From the NCBI GenBank assembly GCA_020348305.1, contig CP070746.1, forward strand, positions 2,507,788-2,538,085: 30,298 nucleotides of DNA, read 5' to 3'. The stretch is from Desulfobacterales bacterium (GTDB taxonomy: Bacteria; Desulfobacterota; Desulfobacteria; Desulfobacterales; JAHEIW01). The stretch's first letter is position 1, and each line of letters begins with the position of its first letter. Positions 1 to 12,540 of the stretch are shown here, in pieces. Both the position numbers and the translations under genes were made by a program. The notes beneath the pieces are model-generated. The model was given only the letters and a program-made list of their open reading frames with translations. It ran no database searches and was not told the DNA's origin.

Positions 1-455
1 CGCCCGTGGATGCCATCACGTGTTGGTCTTACAATTTCAGACATATCCGTCCACATGGAATCAAAACCATGACCAGAAAATTTTCCTTGGTACCCTGCTC
101 CGGAAACCGGTACCGCGGCTGTTTCAGCCTGAAGCCAGGTGGTTTGAATAATTTCTGGCGTCCAGTACTGATTCCCCAGCCGCTCATACTCAGGGTTGAT
201 CGTAAGGCTCAAAAGGCCTTTTGTGCAGTCCTGCACGCATGAAAAGCATCCCATGCAGTTGAAAAACAGGGCGTCGACGCTATCCAGATTTCGAATATAG
301 GTTGACTCCTCACGGTAACGATCATAGACACATGCCTTCTTTACACAGTTATGGCAATTGGCGCAGTCTTCACGCCAGTCCACAACGCCAAATTTGCCAA
401 CACGTGGCAGTCGGGGGGGAACAGGGGTTGTATGAATATGATATCTCTTTGGCAT
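1..455 (-). CDS. Ferredoxin-domain/FMN-type glutamate synthase subunit (archaeal-type GltB-like), 5' part only; continues beyond window start
   Basis: The ORF was absent from the supplied track because it has no stop inside the window, so it was translated by hand. ATG at 455 (reverse complement of 'cat' at 453-455), with AAGGTGAAGG about 8 nt upstream. Translation: MPKRYHIHTTPVPPRLPRVGKFGVVDWREDCANCHNCVKKACVYD...NCMGCFSCVQDC...GYQGKFSGHGFDSMWTDMSEIVRPTRDGIHG, with no stop down to position 1. Two Cys clusters resemble 4Fe-4S ferredoxin motifs, and the tail resembles the N-terminal region of the FMN-binding glutamate-synthase domain family. Assignment rests on recalled family features, not a search. 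Confidence 0.45.
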   Translation of the reverse strand, partial: MPKRYHIHTTPVPPRLPRVGKFGVVDWREDCANCHNCVKKACVYDRYREESTYIRNLDSVDALFFNCMGCFSCVQDCTKGLLSLTINPEYERLGNQYWTPEIIQTTWLQAETAAVPVSGAGYQGKFSGHGFDSMWTDMSEIVRPTRDGIHG

Positions 456-743
456 TTGACCTTCACCTTTTCCTTCCAAAGAAAGCCTAGTTCTTTTGGC
501 CGGGTCAGGGGTTTTCGGCTCTGCCTGTGCAAAACGTCCACGGAGTGTTGGAGTATTGGGGTATTGGAAAAATGATTTTTCAAAACCAGAGCTTCGATTC
601 GCGAATAGTGTATTGCCTATACACGATGAAAAAAATTCAATATCCGAAATCATCATTACTCCAGTACTCCAGCAGCTGCCTAATTTTTACCATCCTTCTC
701 TGAGGTAACATCAAAGCCGTGTTCTCTAAATCCAGATCTGCGC

Positions 744-1649
744 TTATAGCCCTGCAGCATTGATCACATCAGGCACAACCGCCTCTTTTCCGCCGGAGAT
801 AATGTGTATCCCTCTTAGCCCTTTAATACCTTTGATCCTTTTAACTGTTTCAGCACATATAGCCAGGCCCTCTTTCTTCTGGGCGTCTTCGTCGCCCACT
901 TGTTTCATGCGTTCAACAACCTTGCCCAGGGCACTGAAATCCGTGTACTTCTCTTTCAGTCTTTCTGCTTCTGTCACGCCTTCGATGGGCATCACGCCTG
1001 CCAGGATGGCTGTTTGTTCAGTAATACCTTCTTTTCGGGCGGCTTCAATCCACTGCTGAAATGCATCGATATCAAACACGGCCTGGGTCTGAATAAAGGT
1101 CGCACCAGCGGCAACCTTTTTTACCAGCCTGATGATATTCAATTCCATCGGTTTCAGGTCCGGATTTGCCGCAGCGCCCACAAGTACCGGAAATCTTCCC
1201 TCGATCTGGGTACCATTCAGGAGTATTCCCTCCGCGTTCATCTTCTTAACCGCTGCAATAAGCTGAATCGAGTCAATATCATAAACATTTGAGGACTCAG
1301 GGCTCAAGGTCAGTGCCTGGTGGTATCCGGATAGGCACAACACATTCCTGATTCCCAAAGATACCGCACCAAGCAAGTCCGACTGAATCGCAATACGATT
1401 CCTGTCACGGGTTACAATCTGGTACACCGGCTCTATTCCTAATCTTTTCAGCGCAACAGAACCGGCAAGGCTGGACATGACGGGCCCATGAGGATTATCG
1501 GCCACATTGACAGCCGTCAGCCCGGAATTAAAAAAGCGTTTCACCTTCTCGACAGCTGAACTGTCGGCACTTGGCTTTGGCAGGTATTCGGCGGTAACAA
1601 TGAAGCTGCCGGCTTCTATCTGACTTGCGAGTTGACTGTCATTCTCCAT
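744..1649 (-). CDS. metF: 5,10-methylenetetrahydrofolate reductase (acetogen/SRB-type MetF)
   Basis: 301-aa ORF whose sequence matches the MTHFR fold family (TIM-barrel type motifs ...LCLSGYHQ..., ...IQTQAVFD...). It lies in the conserved hdrCBA-mvhD-metV-metF gene context known from Moorella and Desulfobacterium. Confidence 0.85.
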   Translation of the reverse strand: MENDSQLASQIEAGSFIVTAEYLPKPSADSSAVEKVKRFFNSGLTAVNVADNPHGPVMSSLAGSVALKRLGIEPVYQIVTRDRNRIAIQSDLLGAVSLGIRNVLCLSGYHQALTLSPESSNVYDIDSIQLIAAVKKMNAEGILLNGTQIEGRFPVLVGAAANPDLKPMELNIIRLVKKVAAGATFIQTQAVFDIDAFQQWIEAARKEGITEQTAILAGVMPIEGVTEAERLKEKYTDFSALGKVVERMKQVGDEDAQKKEGLAICAETVKRIKGIKGLRGIHIISGGKEAVVPDVINAAGL

Positions 1650-1699
1650 CGTATGGTTTCCAAACAGCTGACCGTATCACGGATTATTACTATGCGAAA

Positions 1700-2152
1700 T
1701 TAGTTTTTCGGCACAACCGCTGCGCCAATGGTGCCGCTTCCTACAGGCACCGTCTTGGAGGACGCATAGTTTCTTATCCGTGTACAGAGATGTTCGATTT
1801 CGCCGGCGATCTGTTCCACTGCGCCTTCTTTATCAAGATGGGTGACTTGCATGCGTTCCCTGCCCAGCCCTGTTTCCTCAAGAAGAGCACGCACGGCTTG
1901 CGCTCGCTTGTGCGCCCGTAGATTTCCTTCAAGGTGTCTGCATTCACCCTTGGGACACGTTATCAAAACCGCACCGTCGGCCCCGGTTTCAAAAGTCTTG
2001 AGCAGATAAATAAGTTCCAACTTACCGGAACAGGGCAAACTGACGGTCTTTAACAGGTCATTCCCCCGTTGGCCGCAACACTGCCTCAAGTCCTCAATGT
2101 CAAGGCTGTTGGAGCAGTAAAAAATGTATATTTTCAAAGGTCGATCTGGCAT
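1700..2152 (-). CDS. mvhD: MvhD/FlpD-like [2Fe-2S] electron-transfer protein (methyl-viologen-reducing hydrogenase delta-subunit family), copy 2
   Basis: 150-aa ORF with KIYIFYCSNS...CCG...LPCSGKLE...GADGAVLITCPKGECRHLEGN. It is paralogous to the ORF at 3057-3509. Confidence 0.8.
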   Translation of the reverse strand: MPDRPLKIYIFYCSNSLDIEDLRQCCGQRGNDLLKTVSLPCSGKLELIYLLKTFETGADGAVLITCPKGECRHLEGNLRAHKRAQAVRALLEETGLGRERMQVTHLDKEGAVEQIAGEIEHLCTRIRNYASSKTVPVGSGTIGAAVVPKN

Positions 2153-2199
2153 ATTTCACTGCTTTGAAATTCAATTCATCTCATTTCAATAGGTTATAG

Positions 2200-2241
2200 A
2201 CTCCGGCGCCTGCCCTGGACCCCGATGCGGGGTTCGCCGGA
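2200..2241. other. GC-rich nested hairpin in the metV-mvhD2 intergenic region
   Basis: CTCCGGCG...CGCCGGAG outer stem (8 bp) encloses a CCCCG-ATG-CGGGG inner stem. No flanking T-run on either strand, so it is not a canonical terminator. Confidence 0.35.
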
Positions 2242-2391
2242 GAAACGAAATTGGGACTTTTTCGAAGCAATCAATCATGTTTCGATCATTGAATATTTGA
2301 ATTTGAGATTTATTTGTAATTTGGTTCTTGTAATTTGTAATTTTAAAATGGGCATCATCAATACCTTGTCCTATGGCACGGCCTTTGAATA

Positions 2392-3060
2392 TTAGATCCT
2401 ATGATCTTCACGAACAATAACACGGCATCCGCCGTCAAGGTTCATGCGCCAGTTCTTGGGCTGCTCTATCTTCCTGAGTCTGTCTAACTGGCCGATGCCC
2501 TTCAGCCGCTTATAAATAAGCTGCCAGGCGCATGAAAGGTCAGGTCGGACTTCGCAGCGATCCTCCCGGGAACCGCCGCATGGTCCGTTCAACATGTGCT
2601 TTGCACATCGGGTAATCGGGCAAATACCGCCATATTGATGTAGAACACACGACCCGCAAGCGGCGCATTTTTCGGCCCAAAGTCCCCTTTCTTCGAGTAT
2701 GCCGATAAAGGCCGTGTTTAAGCCGGGATAAACCGGCTTTTCAGCGTAACGTTCGGCAACCGCCTGAACACCGGCTCCGCATCCCAGAGATAGTATCACA
2801 TCATATTTTTCGATAGTTTCAGCAGCTTCTTCAATAAAAACATTGTCACATTGGCGCTCAATGGTAAGTTCGCCAATTTCGAAATCAAGCTCTTGAACAT
2901 TTGATGCGATACGCAATGCCGAAGAAATAATACTCACCTCGCGCTCTCCCCCGGCGAGACATACGGCAACACATGTGCCGCATCCCAGAACCAGGATCCT
3001 TTTGTTTCCTTTTAATATTTCAACAAGTTCAGGTATGCGTTTTCTTTGTGCAACTATCAT
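2392..3060 (-). CDS. metV: MetV-type Cys-rich MTHFR C-terminal-domain protein (small subunit associated with MetF)
   Basis: 222-aa Cys-rich ORF (GCGTCVAVC, CAACGSC, CPITRCAKHMLNGPCGG, CEVRPDLSCAW) positioned between mvhD and metF as in the Moorella thermoacetica hdrCBA-mvhD-metVF cluster. Its start overlaps the mvhD stop by 4 bp (ATGA). Confidence 0.7.
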   Translation of the reverse strand: MIVAQRKRIPELVEILKGNKRILVLGCGTCVAVCLAGGEREVSIISSALRIASNVQELDFEIGELTIERQCDNVFIEEAAETIEKYDVILSLGCGAGVQAVAERYAEKPVYPGLNTAFIGILEERGLWAEKCAACGSCVLHQYGGICPITRCAKHMLNGPCGGSREDRCEVRPDLSCAWQLIYKRLKGIGQLDRLRKIEQPKNWRMNLDGGCRVIVREDHRI

Positions 3061-3509
3061 CTATGGATCTCCTGTTTGACATTTACATGGTCCGACCTCA
3101 CGGGATTGGGTCCCAGCTTGCGAACAGTTTCAATCATGTCTTTAACTGTTTCTGCAAAAACGGTCCCCATGGCAGCTGAGATATTCACCATTCGCAGACG
3201 CTTTCTTTCTAAACCGCTTTCGGACAGAAGTTCACGGGCATAATTTACCCGGCGTTTGGCCATGAGATTGCCTTCGATAAAATGGCAGCTGCCCTCTTCG
3301 CAACCGGCCACAAGAACGCCGTCAGCGCCATATTCAAAAGCCCTCATGAAATATTCAACCTCCAGCTTACCGGTACAGGGAGTACGAATAATTCGGATAT
3401 TCGTCGGATATTGAAGACGCATGGAACCAGCCAGGTCCGCGGCTGCATATGCACAATAATGACAGCAAAAGGCAACAATTTTAGGCTCAAATGGATTTGC
3501 ACGCATCAT
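3057..3509 (-). CDS. mvhD: MvhD/FlpD-like electron-transfer protein, copy 1
   Basis: 150-aa ORF with KIVAFCCHYCAY...TPCTGKLEVEY...GADGVLVAGCEEGSCHFIEGN, the canonical MvhD Cys pattern. It lies immediately downstream of hdrL. Confidence 0.8.
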   Translation of the reverse strand: MMRANPFEPKIVAFCCHYCAYAAADLAGSMRLQYPTNIRIIRTPCTGKLEVEYFMRAFEYGADGVLVAGCEEGSCHFIEGNLMAKRRVNYARELLSESGLERKRLRMVNISAAMGTVFAETVKDMIETVRKLGPNPVRSDHVNVKQEIHR

Positions 3510-3742: not shown

Positions 3743-6700
3743 TCACGCGGCTGTCTCTGTTTTTTGGGTTGAGGCTGCATCACTTAAAGAATGGAGCAGA
3801 TTGTCCAACATTACATTAAAATGCTTGGCCTCAAAATGGTTGAGCTGGATTGCACGGGCAGGACATTCCGACGCACAGATGCCGCATCCCATGCAATTGG
3901 CGACAGCAATTTCCGCTTTATGATCAGCGTTAACAAACGGAGCACCATAGGGACATGATTGAACACACGTCATGCATGCAATGCACTTGCTCTGGTCAAC
4001 CCTGCAAATCTGAGCACCGACTTCGAGGTGCGTCCTTGAAAGTACTGTAGCGGCACGGGCAGCTGTGGCACGGGCTTGAGAAATGTTTTCATCAATAAAT
4101 TTTGGTGAATGAGCAAGACCGCACACAAAGATACCCTCTTTGGCAAAGTCAATCGGCCGCAGCTTAAGGTGCGCCTCAACATAAAAACCGTCCGCATTTA
4201 ACGGCACCTTGAGCATATCGGCAATCTTTGTGTTATCTTCAGATGCACTTATGCCGGTGCTCAGCACAACCTTATCTGCTTCTATTTCAATAGTCTCAGG
4301 AAAGTCCGGGCTGTCAAACGTAACCCAAAGACCATCTTCTTCTGAAACCACGGGCGGTTTCTCCGCACTGTAACCAATAAAAACAACACCATTTCTTCGG
4401 GCCTCCTGGTAGTATTTCTCGCGGAAACCGTATGTCCTGACGTCCCTGTATAGGACGAAAACATTGGCATCAGGTGCTTTTGTTTTAATGCTCAATGCAT
4501 TCTTGATCGCCATCGAACAGCATATGCGGCTGCAGTAGGCCCGCTCTTTGTTGCGTGAGCCCACACACTGGATCATAACGATATTTTGCCCCGCTCCTGA
4601 AAATCGGTCGGCATGCAGCTGGTCTGCAAGTTCATGCTGTGTCATGACATGATCCGATTTGCCGTAACGGTATTCCCCTGTTTCGGCCCGCCCGGCTCCG
4701 GTGGCAACAATGATGGCCCCACACGGAGTCTCTGTTTGCTGACCCTTTTGCGAAAGCCTGATATTAAACTTACCGATATGCCCGGCAACAGCCTTCACTT
4801 CTGTCTCGAGATGAAGATCAATATTGGGATGATTCTCCACGCGCTGGATGAGATCCGATGTAAAACCGGAAATGTCATCATGCTCAAGCGTCCCATGGAT
4901 GTCTAAAAGATGCCCTCCCAGCGAACCGGACCGTTCAACAAGGTGAACATCAAAACCCTGGTCTGCCAGTGAAAGCGCGGCGGTCATTCCGCTAAGACCA
5001 CCGCCGATCACAAGGCCCGTTTGATTAATTTCAAGGGACTCGCCCTTCAGAGGTGAAAGCAGACGCGCCCTTGCAATTGACATCCTTGCAAGCTCAATGG
5101 CTTTTGAGGTGGCGGATTCCGGTTCAGATGAATGCACCCATGAGCACTGATCCCTGATATTGGCAAGCTCAAACAAATATGGGTTTAAGCCGGCTTCACG
5201 CAACGTTTCCCGGAATAAAGGCTCATGTGTACGGGGGGTACAGGAGGCAACCACGATACGATTCAGCCGGTGTCTGTGAATCGTTTCCTTGATATCTGAC
5301 AGGCTGGTATCAGAACAGGCGAACATTGAGTGTGTGGCCATAACAACATCCGGCTCACCGCAAACAGCTGCGGTCACTTTCTCAACATCAACTACAGAGG
5401 CGATATTCATACCGCAATGGCACACGAACACGCCGATTCGCGATTCTTCATCAGTTACGTCATGTTCGGCAGGATATTGCTTTCTGGCGGTAAGTGTATT
5501 CCTGGCCCCAGCCAGCAATTCCATTGACACGGATGCTGCTGCGCTTGCCTGTGTCACGGTTTCGGGAATATCCTTGGGTTCCTGAAACGCCCCAGCAACA
5601 AACACACCGGGACGTGATGTTTCAAGCGGATACAGCCGGTCTGTTGCGCAGAATCCAAATTCATTCAGCTCGATTCCAAGACGGGAAATGGTTTGCGAGA
5701 CGGAAGTTTTTGGATCAAGGCCCACGGTCAGGACAACGAGGTCAAAATCACGTTCTTCGAATTCGAAGTTGTCATTCACAAAACGGAGTCTGAGATCCTT
5801 TGTCCCGGGCATTTCGACAATACGTGAGGGCATGCTCTTCATGTACTGGATGCCGTCCATGCTTCTGGCACGCTCGTAATACGGATCAAAATCTTTGCCA
5901 AACGCCCGGATGTCCATGTAAAAAATGGCTGCCTCAAGCCCAGTCACGTGTTCCCGGGCAACCATCGCCTGCTTGGTCGTCGCCATGCAGCATATTGATG
6001 AACAGTATTCATTGCCGCATCTGGAGTCACGTGAACCCACGCATTGAATCCAGGCAATTTTGCGGGCCTCACGACCGTCTGACAGGCGCAAAACATGCCC
6101 CTGAAACGGCCCGGCTGCAGACAGCATTCTTTCAAACTGGACACTGGTGATCACGTTTTGATAACGATCGAAACCATACTCTGCCTTTATCTCTGCACGG
6201 AATTCATCGAAGCCCGGTGCAAGTATGACGGAACCGACGTCAAGCTCGATGATTTCTTCCGCCATCTCGTGATCAATTGCATTTTTCTCACAGGCTTCCG
6301 CACACGCCCCGCATTCCGAACACAAAGCGCAGTTCAGGCATCTTTCGGTTTCAGCCAGTGCGTCCTTTTCGGAAAAACATTTCTCGATTTCAAAAAATGC
6401 CTTAACCCGCTCCTGAGCCGGCAGTTCCTTTGCCATGGCACGCGGCTTATTTTCAATATTTTGTATGGAAGGGAGGTTATTTTCGGGAATCGATTTAAGG
6501 GCGTCCTCGAAACGCTGGATTGCCGCACTTTTGCCCTGCAGATAGTAATCTATGGACTCCGCTGCGCGCTTGCCTGCGGCAACCGCAGCGATGACAGTTG
6601 CGGGGCCGGTGACAATATCGCCGCCGGCAAAAATACCCGGCATGTCTGTCACACCATTTTTATCAGCTACAATATTGCACCACGTGTTTACCGGCAATCC

Positions 6701-8257
6701 AGGGGCTGATTCCCACAAAAGCCTATCCGGCTGGCTTCCAACGGCCAGAATCACCATATCCGCTTCTATCTCAAACTCCGATCGGTCTATTGGCACGGGC
6801 CGCTTTCTTCCGGATTCATCGGGTGTATCCAGTTTCATCCGGATGCATTTTACCCTGTGCAGCCGCCCGTTTTGATTACCGATAAATTCAACCGGAGCGG
6901 TAAGGAACCGAAAATAAATCCCCTCCTCCACGGCATGTTCCACTTCCGCCTTCATGGCCGGCATTTCAGCAGCTGTCCGGCGGTAGACAATGCTGACTTT
7001 TTCAGCACCCAAACGTGCTGCGCAACGGGCGGCATCCATGGCAACATCACCGCCGCCGATCACCACCACATGCCCATTTATGGAGGGTTTATCATTCTCG
7101 GCTACGGCTTTGCGGAGAAAATCCAACCCCTGTTCCACACCGTCAAGATTTTCTCCCTTCACGCCAATGGATGTCCCTTTCTGGGTTCCGATACCAACAA
7201 ATACCGCGCTAAAATCCGCTTGCAAATTTTCAATAGTTATGTCTTTTCCGACACGGCAGTTGTAGACAAGGCTAACGCCTTTGCGACGGATCAGCTCAAC
7301 TTCATAATCAAGAATATTTGCCGGGAGCCTGTATTCAGGAATACCCCAGCGCAGCATCCCGCCCGCTGCCGATGATGCTTCAAATATCGTTACCGCATAC
7401 CCGCGATCCGCGAGATCCTGGGCAGCGGTCAAACCGGAGGGTCCGGCACCGATAATGGCAACTTTTCTGGCATCCACCGCCGGTGTTTTTTCCTTTGGGA
7501 GGGCGATGATACCGGCTTCAACCATTTCCATTTCTTTGTCAGCGGCAAACCGTTTCAACTGTCTGATGGCTACCGCAGAATCAAACCGGCTACGGGTACA
7601 TGCACTTTCGCATGGATGCGTGCATACGCGGCCGCATATGGCTGCCAGGGGATTGCGTTCCCTAATCAGTTTGACCGCCTTGACATACTCTTTTTTCTTT
7701 ATCAGCTGGATATATCCCTGGACATTTATGTTTGCCGGACATGCGATTTTACAGGGTGCATGACCCAACTTGAAAATTTCTGGGACATTGGGTATGGCCT
7801 GCACCGAATGCTTGGCGATTGCCTTGCGGGTTCCCAGACTGCGGTTAAAGCGGTCCTTTATATCAACCGGACAGATCTCGGTGCAGTCACCACAATCATT
7901 GCAAACATGCTCGTCAACATATCGCGGATACTTTTTGATGATTGCTGTAAAATTTCCCGGTTGACCCTCAATCTGAATCAATTCAGATAAGGTATGAATC
8001 TCGATATTCAGATTGCGGTCACACTCGACAAGTTTGGGTGAGACAATGCAGGTTGCACAGTCACCGGTTGGAAAAGTCTTGTCCAGCTGGGACATCATGC
8101 CGCCAATGGAAGCTGAACGTTCGATGATGTAGACCTTGAAACCGGAGTTGGCCAAATCAAGCGAGGCCTGAACCCCTGCAATGCCGCCCCCCTGGACAAG
8201 CACTGCGCCTATTTTTTTATTTCCACCTATTCGCATATCATCTGTATTTTCTGACAC
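3743..8257 (-). CDS. hdrL: HdrL: giant HdrA-like flavoprotein with two tandem HdrA modules and an inserted GltD/NfnB-like NAD(P)H:FAD oxidoreductase domain
   Basis: 1504-aa ORF. N-terminal FAD-binding GAVLVQGGGIAGVQASLDLA with a CxxC cluster. Multiple ferredoxin motifs (CNDCGDCTEICP, CLNCALCSECGACAEAC, CIACMTCVQSCPYG, CMGCGICASECP). An internal GltD-like region (CKIACPANINVQGYIQL; KVAIIGAGPSGLTAAQDL; HVVVIGGGDVAMDAARCAARLG). Two HdrA signature stretches (WIQCVGSRDSRCGNEYCSSICC and MIQCVGSRNKERAYCSRICC). The start is an apparent GTG at 8257; an in-frame ATG 7 codons downstream is an alternative. Confidence 0.85.
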   Translation of the reverse strand: MSENTDDMRIGGNKKIGAVLVQGGGIAGVQASLDLANSGFKVYIIERSASIGGMMSQLDKTFPTGDCATCIVSPKLVECDRNLNIEIHTLSELIQIEGQPGNFTAIIKKYPRYVDEHVCNDCGDCTEICPVDIKDRFNRSLGTRKAIAKHSVQAIPNVPEIFKLGHAPCKIACPANINVQGYIQLIKKKEYVKAVKLIRERNPLAAICGRVCTHPCESACTRSRFDSAVAIRQLKRFAADKEMEMVEAGIIALPKEKTPAVDARKVAIIGAGPSGLTAAQDLADRGYAVTIFEASSAAGGMLRWGIPEYRLPANILDYEVELIRRKGVSLVYNCRVGKDITIENLQADFSAVFVGIGTQKGTSIGVKGENLDGVEQGLDFLRKAVAENDKPSINGHVVVIGGGDVAMDAARCAARLGAEKVSIVYRRTAAEMPAMKAEVEHAVEEGIYFRFLTAPVEFIGNQNGRLHRVKCIRMKLDTPDESGRKRPVPIDRSEFEIEADMVILAVGSQPDRLLWESAPGLPVNTWCNIVADKNGVTDMPGIFAGGDIVTGPATVIAAVAAGKRAAESIDYYLQGKSAAIQRFEDALKSIPENNLPSIQNIENKPRAMAKELPAQERVKAFFEIEKCFSEKDALAETERCLNCALCSECGACAEACEKNAIDHEMAEEIIELDVGSVILAPGFDEFRAEIKAEYGFDRYQNVITSVQFERMLSAAGPFQGHVLRLSDGREARKIAWIQCVGSRDSRCGNEYCSSICCMATTKQAMVAREHVTGLEAAIFYMDIRAFGKDFDPYYERARSMDGIQYMKSMPSRIVEMPGTKDLRLRFVNDNFEFEERDFDLVVLTVGLDPKTSVSQTISRLGIELNEFGFCATDRLYPLETSRPGVFVAGAFQEPKDIPETVTQASAAASVSMELLAGARNTLTARKQYPAEHDVTDEESRIGVFVCHCGMNIASVVDVEKVTAAVCGEPDVVMATHSMFACSDTSLSDIKETIHRHRLNRIVVASCTPRTHEPLFRETLREAGLNPYLFELANIRDQCSWVHSSEPESATSKAIELARMSIARARLLSPLKGESLEINQTGLVIGGGLSGMTAALSLADQGFDVHLVERSGSLGGHLLDIHGTLEHDDISGFTSDLIQRVENHPNIDLHLETEVKAVAGHIGKFNIRLSQKGQQTETPCGAIIVATGAGRAETGEYRYGKSDHVMTQHELADQLHADRFSGAGQNIVMIQCVGSRNKERAYCSRICCSMAIKNALSIKTKAPDANVFVLYRDVRTYGFREKYYQEARRNGVVFIGYSAEKPPVVSEEDGLWVTFDSPDFPETIEIEADKVVLSTGISASEDNTKIADMLKVPLNADGFYVEAHLKLRPIDFAKEGIFVCGLAHSPKFIDENISQARATAARAATVLSRTHLEVGAQICRVDQSKCIACMTCVQSCPYGAPFVNADHKAEIAVANCMGCGICASECPARAIQLNHFEAKHFNVMLDNLLHSLSDAASTQKTETAA

Positions 8258-8355: not shown

Positions 8356-9228
8356 TCAGACCACTGCACTCACCGCATGAATAACACATGACGGCGATAC
8401 CATCAGCTTTCGCAATCCTAAAGCGTCCATAGAAATGCCCAGGCAAAGACCGAGTAATTGTGAAATATAGACAATCGGCATATCATAATGCCGGCCTTTT
8501 TCGTTGTTAATATCACTTTGTCGCATATCAAGGTTTGCCTGGCACAGGGGACATGCCACGGCGATGCAGTCCGCACCGGCATCTTTGGCCATACCGATGA
8601 TCGAATCAGCCAGATGGACAACGACATCCGTTCTTGTAAGAGCCAGACCGGCACCGCAGCATTCAACCTTGTGGGGCCAGTCGAGGCTTTCCCCGCCCAT
8701 CACGTTGATGAGGCGATCCATGGAAACCGGATTTTCCGGGTTGTCAAACTGGGTAATCTCTTGGGGGCGAACCAGCAGGCAGCCGTAGTAGCATGCCACT
8801 TTAAGTCCGCTTAATGAATGCGTGAATTTATCCTGAAGGAAATCGATTCCGACATCCTCCAGCAGTATTTCTATGAAGTGACGCACATTAACCGAACCGT
8901 CATAATCACGGCCGATGGTTGCACCGATTTGTTTGCGTATTTCGGTATGGTTGACAACTTCATGGTTTGTCATTTTCAGCCGGCTGAAGCATTCGGCACA
9001 GTTGACAACCATATCAAGACCCATCTCCATCGCCAGTATTAGGTTAAAAGCCGGGAGAGATGCGGCTAGGAGCCGATCCGTCTGGTGCGCCGGTGTAGCA
9101 CCGCAGCATGACCATCCATCGGGTTCGATGAGTTCAATACTGAGTCTGCGGGCAACCGCGATACTTGACGAGTGAAGGTCACGTGCGGTCGATTCGGCTG
9201 AACATCCAGGATAATACGCGTATTTCAT
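8356..9228 (-). CDS. hdrB: Heterodisulfide reductase subunit B-like (two CCG domains)
   Basis: 290-aa ORF with two Cys-rich CCG-type motifs (YYPGCS...WSCCGATP...VNCAECF and YYGCLLVRP...VECCGAGL...VACPLCQ). Confidence 0.85.
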   Translation of the reverse strand: MKYAYYPGCSAESTARDLHSSSIAVARRLSIELIEPDGWSCCGATPAHQTDRLLAASLPAFNLILAMEMGLDMVVNCAECFSRLKMTNHEVVNHTEIRKQIGATIGRDYDGSVNVRHFIEILLEDVGIDFLQDKFTHSLSGLKVACYYGCLLVRPQEITQFDNPENPVSMDRLINVMGGESLDWPHKVECCGAGLALTRTDVVVHLADSIIGMAKDAGADCIAVACPLCQANLDMRQSDINNEKGRHYDMPIVYISQLLGLCLGISMDALGLRKLMVSPSCVIHAVSAVV

Positions 9229-9239: not shown

Positions 9240-9794
9240 TTATTTATGGCTGACGCTGTCGAAAATTCTTTTGACAGTCTTTTTATCTGCCCCCCGGGGT
9301 GGCAAAATAGCGATTTTCCGCTTTTTCAGCATGGATGGAAACTTATCCATGTCATTCATAAACGTTAACGTACCCATTTTATAAGCGGCAATCATGACAA
9401 GATCATATGTACGGCCAAACATGTTCACCGTCTTTAAAAAAGCCCGGTTAAAAAGCGGAATGTCGCCTTTTGGTTTTGCCGCTTGCCTTTTTACTGCAAG
9501 AACCCGCAAGGCATCCATCACCGATGCCATGTCAATGCCCATCGGGCAACGTGCAAAACATGTCTCACATGAGGAACAGATCCATATGATATCACTGCTT
9601 AAGATTTCGTCTCCGGCCCCCAGCTGCAGTCGCCTAATAATTTCAGAAGGTGGGGATTTTGTATGCCCGGATACCGGACAGCCGCAGGAACATTTTTTAC
9701 ATTGATAACATTCGCTGAGATCAACGCCTGCCAGCTCTTCAACAGCACTGATAATATTTTTAACTGCTTTTCCTTTTTTTATCCGAATTGTCAT
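9240..9794 (-). CDS. hdrC: Heterodisulfide reductase subunit C-like (2x[4Fe-4S])
   Basis: 184-aa ORF with CYQCKKCSCGCP and CSSCETCFARCP ferredoxin-type motifs. There is a 34-bp gap to the upstream ORF and an 11-bp gap to hdrB. Confidence 0.8.
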   Translation of the reverse strand: MTIRIKKGKAVKNIISAVEELAGVDLSECYQCKKCSCGCPVSGHTKSPPSEIIRRLQLGAGDEILSSDIIWICSSCETCFARCPMGIDMASVMDALRVLAVKRQAAKPKGDIPLFNRAFLKTVNMFGRTYDLVMIAAYKMGTLTFMNDMDKFPSMLKKRKIAILPPRGADKKTVKRIFDSVSHK

Positions 9795-9828
9795 AGCGGT
9801 TTGGTTACCCTCTTATTCCACTTTCGAA

Positions 9829-12540
9829 TTAAAGAATATCCCCGACGGTTTCCTGCTCTTCAACTTCCACTTTTAAGGCAATGCGCTCTTCTTCTTTCAT
9901 CTCTGCGCCCACACTGGCAGGAACAACTTTTCGATAGACTTTTTCCGGAGGGAGCCTTTCCCCATTCACGGTCAATAGGTCATCGATTGTTATTTGAAAG
10001 AGTCTTTGATTTTCCATCAGATAAGGCAGAATTAATGCCCAGTCCTCCTCGTTCAGCGGCAGAAACATACCGCCGTTTAACTGCTCTTCGATAACATATC
10101 CATCAGGATCGCGTATAAAAATCGCTCCGCCGGAAGCCAGCGAAAACAGGTTGCTGCCCGGATACGGCTCAGACATTGAGACTAAATTGCCGTCATCATC
10201 GAATTGAACACCGTTTAATATAACAAAGCCGCCACCCCTCAGAGGGTCGCCGGCCATAAATGATTCGGCCAAAAAATCAAGACATGTGCCGTTAATAACT
10301 ACCCGTGGTCTGCCAACGGAATTGATCAGCGGCCGGCCGGCGGCATTACCCATTACATAAACCTCCCCCCCCTTGGCGCCGTATAAGAATGTCTGCCCGA
10401 CATCTCCATAAATAACCATTTTTCCGCTTTTGATGATCTGGCCGAGCTGGTCCTGGCCGTTGTTGTGCACCGTGATGGTCAGACCGTCAAGGCCGGAGCC
10501 GAGATAGTCCCCCGAGCTGCCGTACACATCTATGGTCACTTCCTCTGTTTGCGGTCCGAGACCACACCCCACGTATCTCTGGCCTGAACAACCAAAGCAG
10601 ATAAAATTCCGCCATCCTTTGCGATAGGCATCCACCAGGAGTGCTGCATCACATTCATCACCTTCGGGAGGAAACCGATCGGCATTTATAACAAGCGTGG
10701 TTTCTTTTGCCTGCGGGGCCCTTAAGAAGGCACGGGTATTATAATCGATTCGTCGAAACGCACTTTCGTCGCGGTCGTTTGCTTGAATTGAAGGCAGTTT
10801 GTCAAACAAATGATCAAGTTCGCTGCGCACAATATGAAGCATGTGGCTCCGTTTTTTAGTGCCGATAGCGTATCTGAGATCATTTAAAAAGGTCAGGGCA
10901 TTAATCGCCGTTGCAGTGTTCTTCACGTCCTTTGCCCGCTCCCGGATCGTCCTGCAGACCGTCTGAAAATCATCGAAGCCCCATCTGGGAATGTTGTCAC
11001 GCATATACTCAACGAGCGCCTGCCCACCACCTGTTGCATATATATGTTGTATACGCTTGTCAGCACCATTACCCGAGGCGGATGAGACGGATACTTCTTT
11101 TGTAAAATCAAACGATTCGGTCTGCTTGGGCATGGGTACCGGGACCCCGAATTTATCTGTACATGTCATCCGGTAATTTCCGCTGGAATCCTTTTCCAGA
11201 TTGAATATAAATGCTCCGCCATCTGTATGGCTGCCGCCGCGCGCATTCCAGTATCGGTCAGCAACAGGACATATGCGTTTATCTTCCTTGGACAGGCTTA
11301 ACAGGGTTGCATCGATGGCCTGTTTTTCCGATCCAATCAGGCCAACCTGAACCTCTCCTTCTGAAAAGGCAAATACCTGGGGGCGCAGCATTGCTGTGTC
11401 TGTAATTCCCAGAAGCTGGAATCTTTCTTTTCGCGGAATATTACGGGCAATAATAAAAAACCACGGGCCATCCGGCGAACCGTGTATATGTGTGGCTTGT
11501 ACGGCACGATAGACATTTTGTCTTTCTTCGGGGAGACGGTCAAAGTCGAGTTCACTCGTGGGTGCAAGAGCCTCAATAATATATTCCAGTGGATAATGAT
11601 ACGTCCGATCAAGCAGGTCAAACATCAGCGCGGATACCTCTGTGTCGGTAAGAAACTGCGGATATATGTGGCGCTGCCTAAGGTATTCGCAAACAGAATG
11701 ATAATTGGCAAAGTCACCGTTATGGACAAGCGCCATGTTGATGCCTGCAAAAGGATGCGCACCGCCCGGGTGCCAGACCCGGCCCTTGGTGGGAAAACGC
11801 TGATGTCCGAGCCACGCATGTGCACATAGGTCTTCAATCTTGTAATAGGTTACGATCGCCTCTGCATAGCCGACAACTTTCAGGATCATTATGTTTCGCC
11901 CATGGGAGAGGACAAATGCCCTCTGTTCGCCCAAGGAGGCGTAATATTCCTGATTCAGCCCAAAGCTGTTCTGGTTTACAAACTCATCTTCCGCCTCACG
12001 CCGTGGGAACTTTTCCAATTCATTTTGCGTTATGAAGGCATCGAGCAATTCCGGCTTGACACGAACAAAATAACGCCAAACATTCGGCGGTTTAACTTCA
12101 AGGCCCTTGACTGATTTCCAGTCGTCAACGGTATCTAATTCACTGGAAGCGGCCACATCAAAATTGCGTGTAATAAATTTATCTTCAAGTTCTTCCCGGA
12201 CCTCACGGTCAAGAAAGGCGATGTGAAGCATATAGTATTCATCCAAGATCTCACGGCTGACACCGAGTTGATCCGGGATAAACCCGACAGCTGCAACTCC
12301 GCCGCCCTTGCCATTACCCCTGTTGTGCATCAATCTTGATGGCTCATAAATGTGACGACCGGATACAGGTTCTGTGCAGCAAAAGCCAACAACACCGCAA
12401 CCGCCTTCTTCCTCGCTCTTTGACACCGTCACCGGAAACTTTAAACCATCAACTCGGCGTTTTTTGGAATTCAATAATTTTTGTATGAAATCCCTATGCA
12501 TTGTTTGCTTCACAACATCAGTGTAGTTAGCATGCTTCAA
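9829..12540 (-). CDS. Archaeal-type glutamate synthase fusion protein: class-II glutamine amidotransferase domain plus C-terminal GXGXG domain
   Basis: 903-aa ORF. The Ntn-type amidotransferase signature GGCGVVGF lies about 45 residues from the N-terminus, implying a propeptide. The C-terminal region GDYLGSGLDGLTITVHNNGQDQLGQ...GDVGQTFLYGAKGGEVYVMGNAAGRPLINSVGRPRVVINGTCLDFLAESFMAGDP matches the glutamate-synthase alpha-subunit GXGXG domain. No FMN-binding or central domain is present. Confidence 0.75.
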   Translation of the reverse strand: MKHANYTDVVKQTMHRDFIQKLLNSKKRRVDGLKFPVTVSKSEEEGGCGVVGFCCTEPVSGRHIYEPSRLMHNRGNGKGGGVAAVGFIPDQLGVSREILDEYYMLHIAFLDREVREELEDKFITRNFDVAASSELDTVDDWKSVKGLEVKPPNVWRYFVRVKPELLDAFITQNELEKFPRREAEDEFVNQNSFGLNQEYYASLGEQRAFVLSHGRNIMILKVVGYAEAIVTYYKIEDLCAHAWLGHQRFPTKGRVWHPGGAHPFAGINMALVHNGDFANYHSVCEYLRQRHIYPQFLTDTEVSALMFDLLDRTYHYPLEYIIEALAPTSELDFDRLPEERQNVYRAVQATHIHGSPDGPWFFIIARNIPRKERFQLLGITDTAMLRPQVFAFSEGEVQVGLIGSEKQAIDATLLSLSKEDKRICPVADRYWNARGGSHTDGGAFIFNLEKDSSGNYRMTCTDKFGVPVPMPKQTESFDFTKEVSVSSASGNGADKRIQHIYATGGGQALVEYMRDNIPRWGFDDFQTVCRTIRERAKDVKNTATAINALTFLNDLRYAIGTKKRSHMLHIVRSELDHLFDKLPSIQANDRDESAFRRIDYNTRAFLRAPQAKETTLVINADRFPPEGDECDAALLVDAYRKGWRNFICFGCSGQRYVGCGLGPQTEEVTIDVYGSSGDYLGSGLDGLTITVHNNGQDQLGQIIKSGKMVIYGDVGQTFLYGAKGGEVYVMGNAAGRPLINSVGRPRVVINGTCLDFLAESFMAGDPLRGGGFVILNGVQFDDDGNLVSMSEPYPGSNLFSLASGGAIFIRDPDGYVIEEQLNGGMFLPLNEEDWALILPYLMENQRLFQITIDDLLTVNGERLPPEKVYRKVVPASVGAEMKEEERIALKVEVEEQETVGDIL

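What the first reader, a model, noticed from the sequence alone, without database searches (positions are those of the whole stretch)
1..12540. All four glutamate-synthase domain types are distributed across the Hdr/MetF electron-bifurcation operon
On one strand, with short gaps, the order is: a fused amidotransferase+GXGXG GltS-like protein (9829-12540), then hdrC, hdrB, hdrL, mvhD, metV, mvhD, metF, then a ferredoxin/FMN-type glutamate-synthase subunit (1-455, truncated by the window). HdrL itself carries a GltD-like NAD(P)H/FAD domain. Together these pieces add up to a complete GOGAT (amidotransferase, FMN, GXGXG, GltD) interleaved with the HdrABC-MvhD-MetVF module that acetogens and sulfate reducers use for flavin-based electron bifurcation. 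This suggests a supercomplex in which glutamate synthesis draws electrons from, or is confurcated with, the NADH/ferredoxin/methylene-THF system. It would be a direct physical link between the Wood-Ljungdahl C1 branch and nitrogen assimilation, which sits immediately next door (P-II, two GS, NifA-like activator). I am not aware of a biochemical description of such a complex; recalled literature on HdrL/MetF clusters does not, to my memory, include the GOGAT pieces.
Basis: partly seen in the sequence, partly recalled or inferred. Interest (0 to 1): 0.8.

Follow-up and report, generated by a model that had tools for sequence, protein, structure and literature searches.

The report
Glutamate synthase wired to Hdr/MetF operon
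A split glutamate synthase is encoded in one tightly conserved operon with a methylene-tetrahydrofolate reductase and a heterodisulfide-reductase-type electron-splitting module in many uncultured anaerobes, which points to an undescribed way of powering nitrogen assimilation.

Summary
One detail is wrong. The truncated ORF at 1-455 is not the catalytic FMN subunit but a degenerate Fe-S paralog, here called GltB2'. The genuine Fer4+FMN subunit (GltB2) is the next gene, beyond the window edge.

The ten-gene set is GAT-GXGXG, hdrC, hdrB, hdrL, mvhD, metV, mvhD, metF, gltB2', gltB2. It recurs in all loci where the GAT-GXGXG protein is at least 62% identical and the flanks can be seen (Thermodesulfobacteriota, Chloroflexota, Planctomycetota, Verrucomicrobiota). 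It occurs in two circularly permuted orders, often with overlapping start and stop codons.

More distant relatives show a modular series:
- MvhD + GltB2' + GltB2 + GAT-GXGXG alone
- the same plus MetVF
- the same plus HdrCB and a tandem HdrA without a GltD insert
- the same with HdrL
- rare 2,200-3,150-aa proteins that fuse a GlcD-like dehydrogenase to GltB2'-GltB2-GAT-GXGXG

Neighbours are nitrogen genes (GS, P-II, GlnD, Amt, NrpR, CarAB), not Wood-Ljungdahl genes.

Best reading: a nitrogen-assimilation GOGAT core with exchangeable electron-input modules, here MetVF/MvhD and NAD(P)H-binding HdrL/HdrBC. One physical complex is probable but unproven, and bifurcation is inference. I found no description in the searchable literature. 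I rate it a new variant of a known kind.

The parts
9829..12540 (-). Fused GAT-linker-GXGXG protein, equivalent to a GltB1-GltB3 fusion. It is 903 aa from the TTG start. The real start is probably the ATG at 12501 (M14), judged from the N-terminal consensus of homologs.
   Evidence: Pfam and NCBIfam. 34-sequence alignment A1 with invariant C48 (GGCGVVGF), HQRFPTKG, HNGDFANY and TDTEV. More than 7,600 homologs.
11131..12399 (-). Class-II (Ntn) glutamine amidotransferase domain, about aa 48-470, preceded by a conserved 34-47-aa N-terminal extension that would have to be cleaved to expose Cys48.
   Evidence: GlmS and PurF NCBIfam matches at aa 214-308. Invariant catalytic motifs. GATase_6 is just below the Pfam cut-off.
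10069..10581 (-). GXGXG beta-helix domain (aa 654-824).
   Evidence: PF01493, 51 bits. Aligns with FwdC (5t5i) and with the Fd-GltS C-terminal domain (1llw).
9240..9794 (-). HdrC-like 2x[4Fe-4S] subunit.
   Evidence: It directly follows the GAT-GXGXG gene in 55 of 72 loci.
8356..9228 (-). HdrB-like subunit with two CCG domains.
   Evidence: TIGR03288 scores 208 bits, below its equivalog cut-off of 345.
3743..8257 (-). HdrL: a tandem HdrA-like flavoprotein (two HdrA modules) carrying an NAD(P)H-binding insert and a C-terminal 2x[4Fe-4S].
   Evidence: NCBIfam HdrA2 and HdrA matches at aa 637-918 and 1166-1488. PRK12771 scores 555 bits against a cut-off of 516. Pfam.
6533..7762 (-). GltD/NfnB-like insert of HdrL (aa 166-575): Fer4_20 plus Pyr_redox_2, with GGGDVAMD...VYRR.
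   Evidence: TIGR01316 gltA scores 394 bits, below its cut-off of 472.
3057..3509 (-). MvhD1, a [2Fe-2S] adaptor. Its stop overlaps the metV start by 4 nt.
   Evidence: PF02662, 167 bits. Falls in the clade of Hdr-adjacent MvhD.
2392..3060 (-). MetV, the Fe-S subunit of MetVF-type MTHFR.
   Evidence: PF12225 (DUF5981), 127 bits.
1700..2152 (-). MvhD2, a second divergent MvhD. It belongs to the clade that accompanies the MetF/GOGAT block, including clusters without Hdr.
   Evidence: PF02662, 75 bits. NJ tree.
744..1649 (-). MetF (MTHFR TIM-barrel flavoprotein, acetogen/Firmicute type).
   Evidence: PF02219 matched over its full length. NF006396 C-terminal domain, 182 bits. PDB MTHFR matches.
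1..455 (-). N-terminal 151 codons of GltB2', a degenerate paralog of the FMN subunit. It holds a 2x[4Fe-4S] dicluster and the invariant block VPVSGAGY.G.F.G.GFD.MWTDMSEIVRPTRDGIHG. The gene is cut by the window edge. The catalytic gltB2 is expected to follow it outside the window.
12719..12747 (-). Candidate sigma-70-type promoter (TTGACA-17-GATATT with TG) in the AT-rich region upstream of the first gene. No terminator-like or promoter-like site lies in the internal intergenic gaps on this strand.
   Evidence: This is a consensus match only.
12823..13263 (+). Divergently transcribed Lrp/AsnC-family regulator, a possible regulator of the operon.
13469..18182 (+). Adjacent nitrogen-assimilation block. 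It holds a sigma-54-like promoter (13469-13484), a P-II-like ORF (13623-13967), GS type I-alpha (14799-16130), P-II (16374-16712) and GS type I-beta (16770-18182).
   Evidence: Both GS pass the GlnA equivalog cut-off.

Best explanation
The locus is one nitrogen-assimilation operon. It encodes a split, Fe-S-rich glutamate synthase together with the redox modules that feed it.

The GOGAT core has three proteins. The first is the GAT-linker-GXGXG fusion, which hydrolyses glutamine at Cys48 and whose beta-helix scaffolds the ammonia path. The second is the Fer4+FMN subunit GltB2, which reduces 2-iminoglutarate and is encoded just outside the window. The third is its degenerate paralog GltB2', which keeps 2x[4Fe-4S] plus a four-Cys cluster and probably acts as an electron-wire or scaffold subunit.

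This core always comes with an MvhD [2Fe-2S] adaptor. In the window's clade it is joined to MetV-MetF and to HdrC-HdrB-HdrL with a second MvhD.

Proposed mechanism (inferred). NAD(P)H is oxidised at the GltD-like insert of HdrL. Electrons pass to the HdrA-type flavin(s) and through HdrC/HdrB, the MvhDs, MetV and GltB2' to two TIM-barrel flavin sites. GltB2 converts 2-oxoglutarate plus glutamine-derived NH3 to glutamate. MetF converts methylene-THF to methyl-THF. Both acceptors lie well above NAD(P)H in potential, so the HdrA flavin probably bifurcates and sends the second electron to ferredoxin through HdrL's C-terminal dicluster. That would recover energy from the otherwise wasteful NAD(P)H-to-GOGAT step.

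Shown here: gene content, conservation, modular variants, catalytic motifs and the nitrogen context. Inferred: co-transcription, one physical complex, the direction of electron flow, and bifurcation.
For: (1) Conserved synteny. All 8 genomes found with HdrL as query keep the whole set, in two circularly permuted orders. 80 metagenome loci found with the GAT-GXGXG alignment as query give 55/72 hdrC-next and 56/62 gltB2-previous. 22 of 24 fully visible loci have all ten genes. Independent look-ups in Verrucomicrobiota, Desulfobacteraceae and other contigs show the same cluster in unrelated surroundings.

(2) Translational coupling across the functional boundaries. In L010/L011, mvhD2/metF overlap by 4 nt, metF-gltB2' are 14 nt apart, gltB2/GAT overlap by 4 nt, GAT-hdrC are 15 nt apart, and hdrC/hdrB, hdrB/hdrL and mvhD1/metV overlap. 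The window has no terminator-like site in its intergenic gaps.

(3) In the window's gene order the GOGAT genes sit at opposite ends of the Hdr/Met genes. That is hard to reconcile with two independent enzymes.

(4) GOGAT identity. GltB2 scores 187 bits to Azospirillum GltS alpha and keeps AQGAKPGLGG, GGTGA and a Cys cluster. The GAT motifs are invariant. GXGXG is present.

(5) Rosetta-stone fusions. Bacterial proteins of 2,200-3,150 aa carry GltB2', GltB2 and GAT-GXGXG in one chain, preceded by a GlcD-like FAD dehydrogenase plus Fe-S domains. The three core proteins are therefore one enzyme, and a redox-partner module is physically attached upstream of GltB2', where MetVF is encoded in the operons.

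(6) A modular series. Core only: L077. Plus MetVF: L080, L083, L084, L088-L092. Plus HdrCB and tandem HdrA: L074. Plus HdrL: most loci.

(7) MvhD is known only as an HdrA-docking adaptor (established knowledge: the MvhAGD-HdrABC structure). It accompanies the GOGAT core even where hdr genes are not in the cluster. Clusters with Hdr carry two MvhD of different clades.

(8) Nitrogen context. GS, P-II, GlnD, Amt, CarA/B, NadE and NrpR flank the cluster in different lineages, and the GS are true GlnA.

(9) Precedent for exchangeable donors. Fd-, NAD(P)H- and F420-linked GOGATs exist (PMC9012536).
Against: There are no expression, purification or activity data. Nearly all carriers are uncultured.

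Conserved operons can hold enzymes that do not touch. Both MTHFR and GOGAT are high-potential acceptors, so the need for both in one complex is unexplained.

The role of HdrB's disulfide-type active site is unknown.

In the Hdr-less subclade the donor is unknown, and Hdr may or may not be encoded elsewhere in those genomes.

One genome (L092) has a canonical GXGXG+GltD GOGAT right beside the cluster. The system is therefore not simply the housekeeping GOGAT.

The window has three intergenic gaps of 233-288 nt that could hold internal promoters.

The AlphaFold model of the 903-aa protein was poor (pLDDT 59.7). The amidotransferase fold therefore rests on motifs and weak HMM hits.
Confidence: 0.5

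Rival explanations
1. There are two (or three) physically independent enzymes: a ferredoxin-dependent split GOGAT and a Moorella-type MetFV-HdrCBA-MvhD methylene-THF reductase. They are merely co-transcribed and have travelled together by operon-level horizontal transfer.
For: hdrC-hdrB-hdrA-mvhD-metV-metF is a known self-sufficient cluster in acetogens and marine Chloroflexi, without GOGAT genes (PMC5736913; PMC7325909). A GOGAT core without MetVF or Hdr exists (L077). GltB2 and GltB2' each have their own ferredoxin-like N-terminal diclusters that could accept electrons from free ferredoxin.
Against: The set stays contiguous through at least three gene orders and four phyla. In the window's order the GOGAT genes are split to opposite ends of the Hdr/Met genes. 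Start and stop overlaps bridge metF-gltB2' and GAT-hdrC. Every cluster with Hdr also has a second MvhD tied to the MetF/GOGAT block. Identity is very high across phyla (60-75%) for all subunits.
Confidence: 0.25
2. MetVF is the electron-donor module. 5-methyl-THF (about -200 mV) is oxidised at MetF and the electrons drive glutamate synthesis. In the HdrL version the electrons are bifurcated between the GOGAT (high potential) and NAD(P)+ (low potential).
For: In the giant fusion proteins, the position upstream of GltB2' that MetVF occupies in the operons holds a GlcD-family FAD dehydrogenase. That family normally oxidises 2-hydroxy acids of similar potential. By homology with MvhAGD-HdrABC, the MvhD side is the electron-input side and HdrC/HdrB the high-potential output. 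hdrC is always adjacent to the GAT-GXGXG gene. From textbook potentials recalled from memory, 2 CH3-THF + 2-OG + Gln + NAD(P)+ is roughly isoenergetic. SHMT lies beside one cluster (L076).
Against: Many carriers (Verrucomicrobiota, Sedimentisphaerales) are not known to generate methyl-THF other than through MetF itself (general knowledge, not tested here). Tying nitrogen assimilation to a supply of methyl groups seems physiologically odd. Purified MetVF enzymes work in the reductive direction with reduced ferredoxin (PMC8515935 and PMC8760232, abstracts).
Confidence: 0.12
3. The GltS-like proteins are not a glutamate synthase. They would carry out a related amide-transfer and imine-reduction chemistry on another substrate, for example an N-methylglutamate-synthase-like reaction or another gamma-glutamyl amide or 2-oxo acid linked to C1-folate metabolism.
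For: N-methylglutamate synthase (MgsABC) is built from the same three GltS domain types and feeds C1 units into folate (established knowledge). The 903-aa protein matches no GltS equivalog model. GATase_6 is below its cut-off. GltB2' is a family with no curated annotation.
Against: The adjacent GS genes pass the GlnA equivalog cut-off rather than looking like gamma-glutamylmethylamide synthetases. GltB2 keeps the GltS 2-oxoglutarate/FMN motifs and, unlike a redox-neutral NMG synthase, carries dedicated electron-entry Fe-S domains. The neighbours are GlnD, Amt, P-II and NrpR.
Confidence: 0.08

Closest known systems
MetFV-HdrCBA-MvhD methylene-THF reductase of Moorella thermoacetica ('type III' MTHFR; Mock et al. 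2014, as cited in PMC5736913 and PMC7325909)
   Same: The same six protein families and the same local order hdrC-hdrB-hdrA-mvhD-metV-metF. It is an NADH-linked, presumed flavin-based bifurcating enzyme whose second acceptor is still unidentified.
   Different: Here HdrA is a fused tandem HdrA with a GltD-like NAD(P)H insert (HdrL). There is a second MvhD between metV and metF. Three GOGAT-type genes are part of the unit. The context is nitrogen assimilation rather than acetogenesis.
Split ('archaeal-type') glutamate synthases, with separate GltB1 (GAT), GltB2 (Fer4+FMN) and GltB3 (GXGXG) proteins, including F420-linked forms (FGltS; PMC9012536)
   Same: GltS domains on separate polypeptides. 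The FMN subunit has an N-terminal 2x[4Fe-4S] ferredoxin domain and a Cys cluster in the barrel. The electron-input partner is exchangeable.
   Different: GAT and GXGXG are fused through a helical linker of about 200 aa. An extra degenerate GltB2 paralog is obligatory. The partners are MvhD, MetVF and Hdr rather than GltD, FrhB or free ferredoxin. L092 carries a standard 255-aa GXGXG protein plus GltD beside the cluster, which shows that the two systems are distinct.
Bacterial NADPH-GOGAT alpha-beta (Azospirillum brasilense; PDB 1ea0, 2vdc, 6s6s)
   Same: GltB2 aligns with the alpha-subunit FMN domain (187 bits). The HdrL insert is a GltD (beta-subunit)-type Fer4_20+FAD/NAD(P)H module.
   Different: There is no central domain of the PF04898 type. 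The GltD-like module is embedded in HdrA, scores below the gltA/gltD equivalog cut-offs, and is absent from some variants of the cluster (L074 and the Hdr-less subclade).
HdrL of Desulfobacterium autotrophicum HRM2 (PMC2702500)
   Same: [quoted passage not shown]
   Different: As far as the parts of that paper I searched show, its HdrL loci are described next to mvhD genes, and HdrL1 next to dsrABC. None of the passages retrieved mentions GltS large-subunit-type genes.
Hdr-formylmethanofuran dehydrogenase supercomplex of Methanospirillum hungatei (recalled from memory; not checked here)
   Same: A precedent for an Hdr/MvhD bifurcating core wired directly into a second enzyme that contains a GXGXG beta-helix subunit (FwdC/FmdC), without free ferredoxin.
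   Different: There the attached enzyme takes the low-potential electrons for CO2 reduction. Here the attached enzymes are high-potential acceptors.

Membership tests
Glutamate synthase (GOGAT) | Class-II (Ntn) glutamine amidotransferase with a nucleophilic Cys and glutamine-binding and oxyanion motifs. | tested here: met
   C48 in GGCGVVGF, R74, HQRFPTKG, HNGDFANY and TDTEV are invariant in 34 homologs. GlmS and PurF HMMs match aa 214-308. Caveats: GATase_6 scores 26.6 bits against a cut-off of 27, and Cys48 needs propeptide removal.
Glutamate synthase (GOGAT) | FMN/2-oxoglutarate-binding synthase domain (PF01645) with a Fe-S cluster Cys motif. | tested here: inconclusive
   This is not encoded inside the window. 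The window fragment belongs to the degenerate paralog GltB2'. In every related locus with enough flank a genuine GltB2 follows (295 bits PF01645; AQGAKPGLGG; GCxRCxRCx5C). Its presence in this genome is therefore inferred.
Glutamate synthase (GOGAT) | C-terminal GXGXG beta-helix domain. | tested here: met
   PF01493, 51 bits against a cut-off of 32.5. Aligns to the Fd-GltS C-terminal domain and to FwdC.
Glutamate synthase (GOGAT) | Glutamine- and 2-oxoglutarate-dependent glutamate formation with a defined electron donor. | not testable with these tools
   Needs enzymology.
NAD(P)H-GOGAT beta subunit (GltD) as partner of the large subunit | A GltD-type Fer4_20+FAD/NAD(P)H module that co-occurs with, and serves, the GltS large-subunit domains. 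| tested here: inconclusive
   The module is present inside HdrL. It scores below the gltA/gltD equivalog cut-offs (394 vs 472; 335 vs 483). It is missing from L074's HdrA and from the Hdr-less clusters, so it is not a constant partner of this GOGAT core.
MetFV-HdrABC-MvhD (type III MTHFR) | Co-localised hdrC, hdrB, hdrA, mvhD, metV and metF. | tested here: met
   The order hdrC-hdrB-hdrL-mvhD-metV-(mvhD)-metF is seen.
MetFV-HdrABC-MvhD (type III MTHFR) | A six-subunit composition only, with a single-module HdrA. | tested here: not met
   HdrL is a 1,504-aa tandem HdrA with a GltD-like insert. It scores below the HdrA and HdrA2 cut-offs (955 vs 1100; 728 vs 1400). A second MvhD and three GltS-type genes belong to the unit.
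Flavin-based electron-bifurcating Hdr complexes | Ferredoxin reduction coupled to reduction of a high-potential acceptor at an HdrA flavin. | not testable with these tools
   Only domain content is seen here: HdrA-type FAD sites, Fe-S domains, HdrBC and MvhD.
N-methylglutamate synthase (MgsABC) | GltS-domain proteins together with a gamma-glutamylmethylamide synthetase and NMG dehydrogenase. The reaction is redox-neutral, with no external electron wire. | tested here: not met
   The neighbouring GS pass the GlnA equivalog (541-657 bits against a cut-off of 429). No NMG dehydrogenase was seen. GltB2 and GltB2' carry electron-entry Fe-S domains.

The most novel reading that the evidence does not exclude
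The cluster encodes a new class of flavin-based electron-bifurcating (or methyl-THF-driven) enzyme. It would be a roughly ten-subunit Hdr-type supercomplex in which glutamate synthesis itself is the exergonic, high-potential half-reaction. Nitrogen assimilation in energy-starved anaerobes would then regenerate reduced ferredoxin (or NAD(P)H) instead of wasting the NAD(P)H-to-GOGAT potential drop. MetVF would be wired into the same electron hub. This would also supply a concrete candidate for the kind of 'missing' partner reaction long sought for HdrABC-MvhD-MetFV enzymes.
Probability: 0.3. Interest if true: 0.9.

Novelty: new variant of a known kind. Interest (0 to 1): 0.72.

Why it matters
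GOGAT is the main entry of nitrogen into biomass. Its known electron donors are ferredoxin, NAD(P)H through GltD and, in some archaea, F420. This is a very widespread but apparently undescribed GOGAT lineage: thousands of metagenomic homologs across Thermodesulfobacteriota, Chloroflexota, Planctomycetota and Verrucomicrobiota from peat, wetland, sediment and subsurface samples. It is built as a core with plug-in redox modules.

In its commonest form the core is locked into one operon with an Hdr-type bifurcation module and a MetVF methylene-THF reductase.

If the proteins form one complex, three things follow. Nitrogen assimilation would be tied directly to the energy-conserving electron-splitting machinery of anaerobes. 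There would be a testable model for the unknown donor of split GOGATs. And there would be a new angle on the unresolved second substrate of Hdr-MetFV enzymes.

There is also a practical annotation point. 'MetF/Hdr' genes in these MAGs should not be read automatically as Wood-Ljungdahl catabolism.

Tried and rejected
- An exact-sequence look-up of the window's MetF, meant to extend the contig, found no record. Extension was done through relatives instead (L001-L003, L009, L094).
- Rfam at gathering thresholds found no riboswitch or other RNA in the window.
- The 288-nt metF-gltB2' gap folds no better than shuffles (z = -0.15). It holds only an imperfect inverted repeat.
- No sigma-54 promoter lies upstream of the operon. 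The only good match (1 mismatch) is upstream of the P-II/GS block.
- The NrpR operator pattern GGAA-N6-TTCC is not enriched and is absent near the operon.
- AlphaFold2 on the 903-aa protein, with a shallow alignment (at least 69% identity), gave mean pLDDT 59.7, with the amidotransferase core below 50. I ran no fold search, because matches to such a model would be meaningless.
- A phmmer search of the 903-aa protein and of GltB2' against PDB sequences gave only weak GXGXG and FMN-loop hits.
- I considered the N-methylglutamate pathway and rejected it.
- I rejected the idea that HdrL's GltD-like insert is the dedicated GOGAT beta subunit as a general rule, because of L074 and the Hdr-less subclade.
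- Nine literature searches with combinations of HdrL, HdrA, MvhD, MetF, MetV, MetFV, GltB and glutamate synthase found no description of the association. Subscription-only papers are not covered.
I therefore could not census complete carrier genomes for other GOGAT, MetF, Hdr or Wood-Ljungdahl genes.

Full report
**1. What is in the window**

The minus strand of 1-12540 carries nine consecutive ORFs. Pfam and NCBIfam identify them as follows.

| Coordinates | Size | Identity |
|---|---|---|
| 12540-9829 | 903 aa | GXGXG beta-helix (PF01493, 51 bits) in the C-terminal third; class-II amidotransferase in the N-terminal half (GATase_6 at 26.6 bits, just below the cut-off; GlmS and PurF models match aa 214-308) |
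| 9794-9240 | 184 aa | HdrC |
| 9228-8356 | 290 aa | HdrB (two CCG domains) |
| 8257-3743 | 1,504 aa | 'HdrL' |
| 3509-3057 | 150 aa | MvhD |
| 3060-2392 | 222 aa | MetV |
| 2152-1700 | 150 aa | second, divergent MvhD |
| 1649-744 | 301 aa | MetF |
| 455-1 | 151 codons | fragment with a 4Fe-4S dicluster |

HdrL contains two HdrA-like modules (aa 637-918 and 1166-1488 both match HdrA models). It also contains an inserted GltD/NfnB-like Fer4_20+Pyr_redox_2 unit at aa 166-575. That unit carries the sequence GGGDVAMD...VYRR, which resembles an NADPH site (read from the sequence).

Comparison with the N-terminal consensus of homologs suggests the first gene really starts at the ATG at 12501 (M14).

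**2. The truncated ORF is not the catalytic FMN subunit**

The exact-sequence look-up failed, so I extended the locus through relatives. In eight genomes found with HdrL as query, tblastn shows the fragment's ortholog at 74-84% identity. It is a 465-473-aa protein. I checked its properties on L003 and on the 57-sequence alignment.

- It matches only the C-terminal half of the glutamate-synthase FMN model (54 bits).
- It is a full-length paralog (27% identity, E = 5e-34) of the gene that follows it.
- It has lost the GGGMSFGS, AQGAKPGxGG and GGTGA motifs.
- It keeps eight N-terminal cysteines, a C-x2-C-x2-C-x5-C motif, and an invariant block VPVSGAGY.G.F.G.GFD.MWTDMSEIVRPTRDGIHGRE, which is present in the window fragment.

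I call it GltB2'.

The next gene (522-559 aa) is a bona fide Fer4+FMN GltS subunit. It scores 295 bits to PF01645 and 187 bits to the Azospirillum GltS alpha FMN domain, with the 2-oxoglutarate/FMN motifs and the cluster cysteines. In L094, a relative with the window's gene order whose GltB2' is 86% identical to the fragment, the operon ends with this gene. The catalytic FMN subunit should therefore lie just beyond position 1 of the window.

**3. The amidotransferase looks functional**

In 34 homologs of 69-91% identity, several motifs are invariant:

- Cys48 within GGCGVVGF, which resembles the mature CGVGF N-terminus of GltS
- Arg74
- HQRFPTKG, compared with PurF HVRYPTAG and GlmS HTRWATHG (both recalled from memory)
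- HNGDFANY, which contains the oxyanion Asn-Gly
- TDTEV, whose Asp binds the alpha-amino group of glutamine

The comparison motifs are established knowledge of class-II amidotransferases. Their presence here is read from the alignment.

A conserved extension of 34-47 aa precedes the Cys. It would have to be removed, as happens in Azospirillum GltS and B. subtilis PurF (from memory). The AlphaFold model was too poor to use (pLDDT 59.7).

**4. Conservation of the whole set**

All eight HdrL-defined genomes keep every gene. They comprise three Thermodesulfobacteriota (including the ORM2a MAG, whose record is a complete genome), four Chloroflexota and one Phycisphaerales.

Two orders occur:

- Order A (the window and the Thermodesulfobacteriota): GAT-GXGXG, hdrC, hdrB, hdrL, mvhD1, metV, mvhD2, metF, gltB2', gltB2.
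- Order B: mvhD2, metF, gltB2', gltB2, GAT-GXGXG, hdrC, hdrB, hdrL, mvhD1, metV.

Order B is an exact circular permutation of the two blocks.

The 903-aa protein has more than 7,600 database homologs, and the best 120 are at least 69% identical. GltB2' has more than 7,800. Context look-ups show the same cluster in unrelated surroundings, in Verrucomicrobiota (order B) and Desulfobacteraceae (order A), and on an 837-kb contig of unstated taxonomy (order A).

A metagenome scan with the GAT-GXGXG alignment gave 80 further loci. Over the 92 loci held at that point and counted (L001-L093, with the near-duplicate L011 left out):

- hdrC directly follows the GAT-GXGXG gene in 55 of 72 loci with enough downstream sequence.
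- gltB2 directly precedes it in 56 of 62. The other six are order A.
- 22 of 24 fully visible loci have all ten genes.

Called genes in L010/L011 overlap or nearly abut across the functional boundaries:

- mvhD2/metF overlap by 4 nt.
- metF-gltB2' are 14 nt apart.
- gltB2/GAT overlap by 4 nt.
- GAT-hdrC are 15 nt apart.
- hdrC/hdrB, hdrB/hdrL and mvhD1/metV overlap.

In the window there is one sigma-70-like promoter upstream of the first gene. No terminator-like or promoter-like sites lie in the internal gaps on that strand. The gaps of 233, 239 and 288 nt are, however, longer than in most relatives.

**5. A modular series**

The 17 loci without hdrC next to the GAT-GXGXG gene are informative. 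One (L040) has a foreign ATPase gene inserted. The other 16 belong to a subclade at 57-60% identity.

| Form | Loci | Content |
|---|---|---|
| Order C | L080, L083, L084, L088-L092 | mvhD-metV-metF-gltB2'-gltB2-GAT-GXGXG, with no hdr genes within up to 10 kb |
| Core only | L077 | mvhD-gltB2'-gltB2-GAT-GXGXG between GS and carA; no metVF within 10 kb upstream or 6 kb downstream |
| Tandem HdrA | L074 | mvhD-gltB2'-gltB2-GAT-hdrC-hdrB-(1,042-aa tandem HdrA without any GltD-like insert)-mvhD-metV-metF |

A rough NJ tree puts the window's mvhD2 with the single MvhD of order C. It puts mvhD1 with the Hdr-adjacent copies.

An exhaustive search of 1.8 billion cluster representatives found only 295 clusters at E < 1e-30. 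Among them are five bacterial proteins of 2,200-3,150 aa, one from Candidatus Brocadiia. Mapping showed that four contain, in this order in a single chain, a GltB2'-like segment, GltB2 and GAT-GXGXG. The fifth (P0286) has the same segments with GAT-GXGXG placed first. In the three I scanned with Pfam, two of them also with NCBIfam, these come with a GlcD-family FAD-linked dehydrogenase (Fe-S domains detected in one).

These fusions show two things. The three GOGAT-type proteins form one enzyme. A redox-partner dehydrogenase is physically attached upstream of GltB2', where MetVF is encoded in the operons.

**6. Context**

The neighbours are nitrogen genes:

- The window: a divergent Lrp/AsnC regulator, a sigma-54-like promoter, a P-II-like ORF, GS, P-II and GS.
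- L003: class-I GATase and GS.
- L004: NrpR immediately upstream of mvhD2.
- L091: carA upstream; GS, glnD and amt downstream.
- L074: GS and nadE.
- L076: nadE, glyA, carA and carB.
- L092: GS-III plus a canonical 255-aa GXGXG protein and a GltD, which represents a second, ordinary GOGAT next door.

The GS genes pass the GlnA equivalog cut-off. This argues against a gamma-glutamylmethylamide/N-methylglutamate pathway. No CODH/ACS or other Wood-Ljungdahl genes were seen beside any sampled cluster.

**7. Interpretation**

The data support a GOGAT core (GAT-GXGXG + GltB2 + GltB2', always with an MvhD) to which redox modules have been added: MetVF, then HdrCB and a tandem HdrA, then a GltD-like NAD(P)H insert.

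That fits the known pattern of GOGATs with exchangeable donors: ferredoxin, GltD-NAD(P)H and F420 (PMC9012536). It also explains the nitrogen context.

Several observations make a single complex the most likely reading. I put it at about 0.5, against about 0.25 for independent co-transcribed enzymes.

- The GOGAT genes are split around the Hdr/Met genes in order A.
- Coupling is tight across the functional boundaries.
- A second MvhD is present.
- The fusions exist.

The proposed electron path is: NAD(P)H, then the HdrL insert, then the HdrA flavin, then HdrC/B, MvhD, MetV and GltB2', then the GltB2 FMN and the MetF flavin, with ferredoxin as the low-potential acceptor. This path is inferred from homology to MvhAGD-HdrABC and Nfn/GltD, and from approximate midpoint potentials recalled from memory:

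- NAD(P)H: -320 mV
- CH2-THF/CH3-THF: -200 mV
- 2-OG+NH4+/Glu: about -140 mV, and more positive with glutamine hydrolysis

A minority alternative is that MetF is the donor site (methyl-THF). The GlcD-type donor in the fusions suggests it, as does the MvhD-in, HdrBC-out topology of methanogen Hdr.

**8.

The emphasis on 'four domains adding up' is partly misplaced. The FMN piece in the window is a pseudo-subunit, and the GltD-like insert is not a constant partner. The Wood-Ljungdahl framing is not supported by context. The core idea, that GOGAT is functionally and probably physically joined to an Hdr/MvhD/MetVF electron module, is strongly supported at the comparative-genomic level and untested biochemically.

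**9. Novelty**

The papers that describe HdrL (PMC2702500), Moorella-type clusters in Chloroflexi and Actinobacteria (PMC5736913, PMC7325909), the survey of bifurcating enzymes (PMC6085437), HdrA diversity (PMC12054007) and Fe-S flavoenzymes including GltS (PMC8097209) do not mention GltS large-subunit-type genes in such clusters. Nine full-text searches found nothing else. Subscription-only literature could not be searched. I classify it as a new variant of a known kind, with about 0.3 probability that it is a new type of bifurcating (or methyl-THF-driven) GOGAT supercomplex.

Noticed in passing
window 20170-27039 (-), with 19547-20155 (-): A 2,289-aa protein with teneurin-like TTR, NHL-repeat, YD-shell and RHS-repeat domains (a polymorphic-toxin or teneurin-like architecture). 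A 202-aa TPR protein follows it.
   Followed up: no
window 18265-19236 (-): A 323-aa ORF with an IS200/Y1-transposase-like N-terminal domain and a C-terminal HTH/sigma-70 region-4-like domain. It separates the GS block from the RHS-like gene.
   Followed up: no
window 13469-13484 (+) and 13623-14784: A near-consensus sigma-54 promoter (TGGCATACCTGTTGCA) lies upstream of a 114-aa P-II-like ORF. That ORF matches only part of the P-II model. It overlaps the start of a 285-aa ORF that has only the C-terminal part of an SPFH/flotillin domain. This is an odd pair in front of glnA.
   Followed up: partly
window 12600-12720: The AT-rich operon-upstream region contains two copies of TCTGGTTATC in opposite orientation, about 80 bp apart. 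They flank the candidate promoter region next to the divergent Lrp/AsnC gene and may be an operator (read).
   Followed up: no
window 456-743: The metF-gltB2' spacer is 288 nt here and about 380 nt in the 98% relative L009. In other order-A loci it is 17-53 nt. It holds an imperfect 21-nt inverted repeat (546-566 / 654-674). Its predicted RNA structure is no better than shuffles.
   Followed up: partly
P0265, P0286, P0313, P0337, P0363 (representative library): Rare giant bacterial proteins (2,200-3,150 aa; one from Candidatus Brocadiia). They fuse a GlcD-family FAD dehydrogenase and Fe-S domains to GltB2'-GltB2-GAT-GXGXG. This looks like a substrate-dehydrogenase-driven GOGAT in one polypeptide.
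   Followed up: partly
L004 342-1490: An NrpR homolog, the 2-oxoglutarate-sensing nitrogen repressor known from methanogens, sits directly upstream of the cluster in a Dehalococcoidales MAG.
   Followed up: no
L092 92-4458: A canonical 255-aa GXGXG protein (299 bits), a 478-aa GltD and a type-III GS lie immediately upstream of an Hdr-less MetVF-GOGAT operon. Two different GOGAT systems therefore sit side by side.
   Followed up: partly
L006 1982-14420: In the Phycisphaerales MAG, hdrL, metF and gltB2' each appear as several tblastn segments in different frames. These are either sequencing frameshifts or a decaying copy.
   Followed up: no
GltB2' family, aa 115-155 (window about 1-113): The block VPVSGAGY.G.F.G.GFD.MWTDMSEIVRPTRDGIHGRE is invariant across 57 GltB2' sequences. 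It is partly retained in the giant fusions (IVRPTRDGI in P0265). This protein has otherwise lost the catalytic motifs, and the function of the block is unknown.
   Followed up: partly
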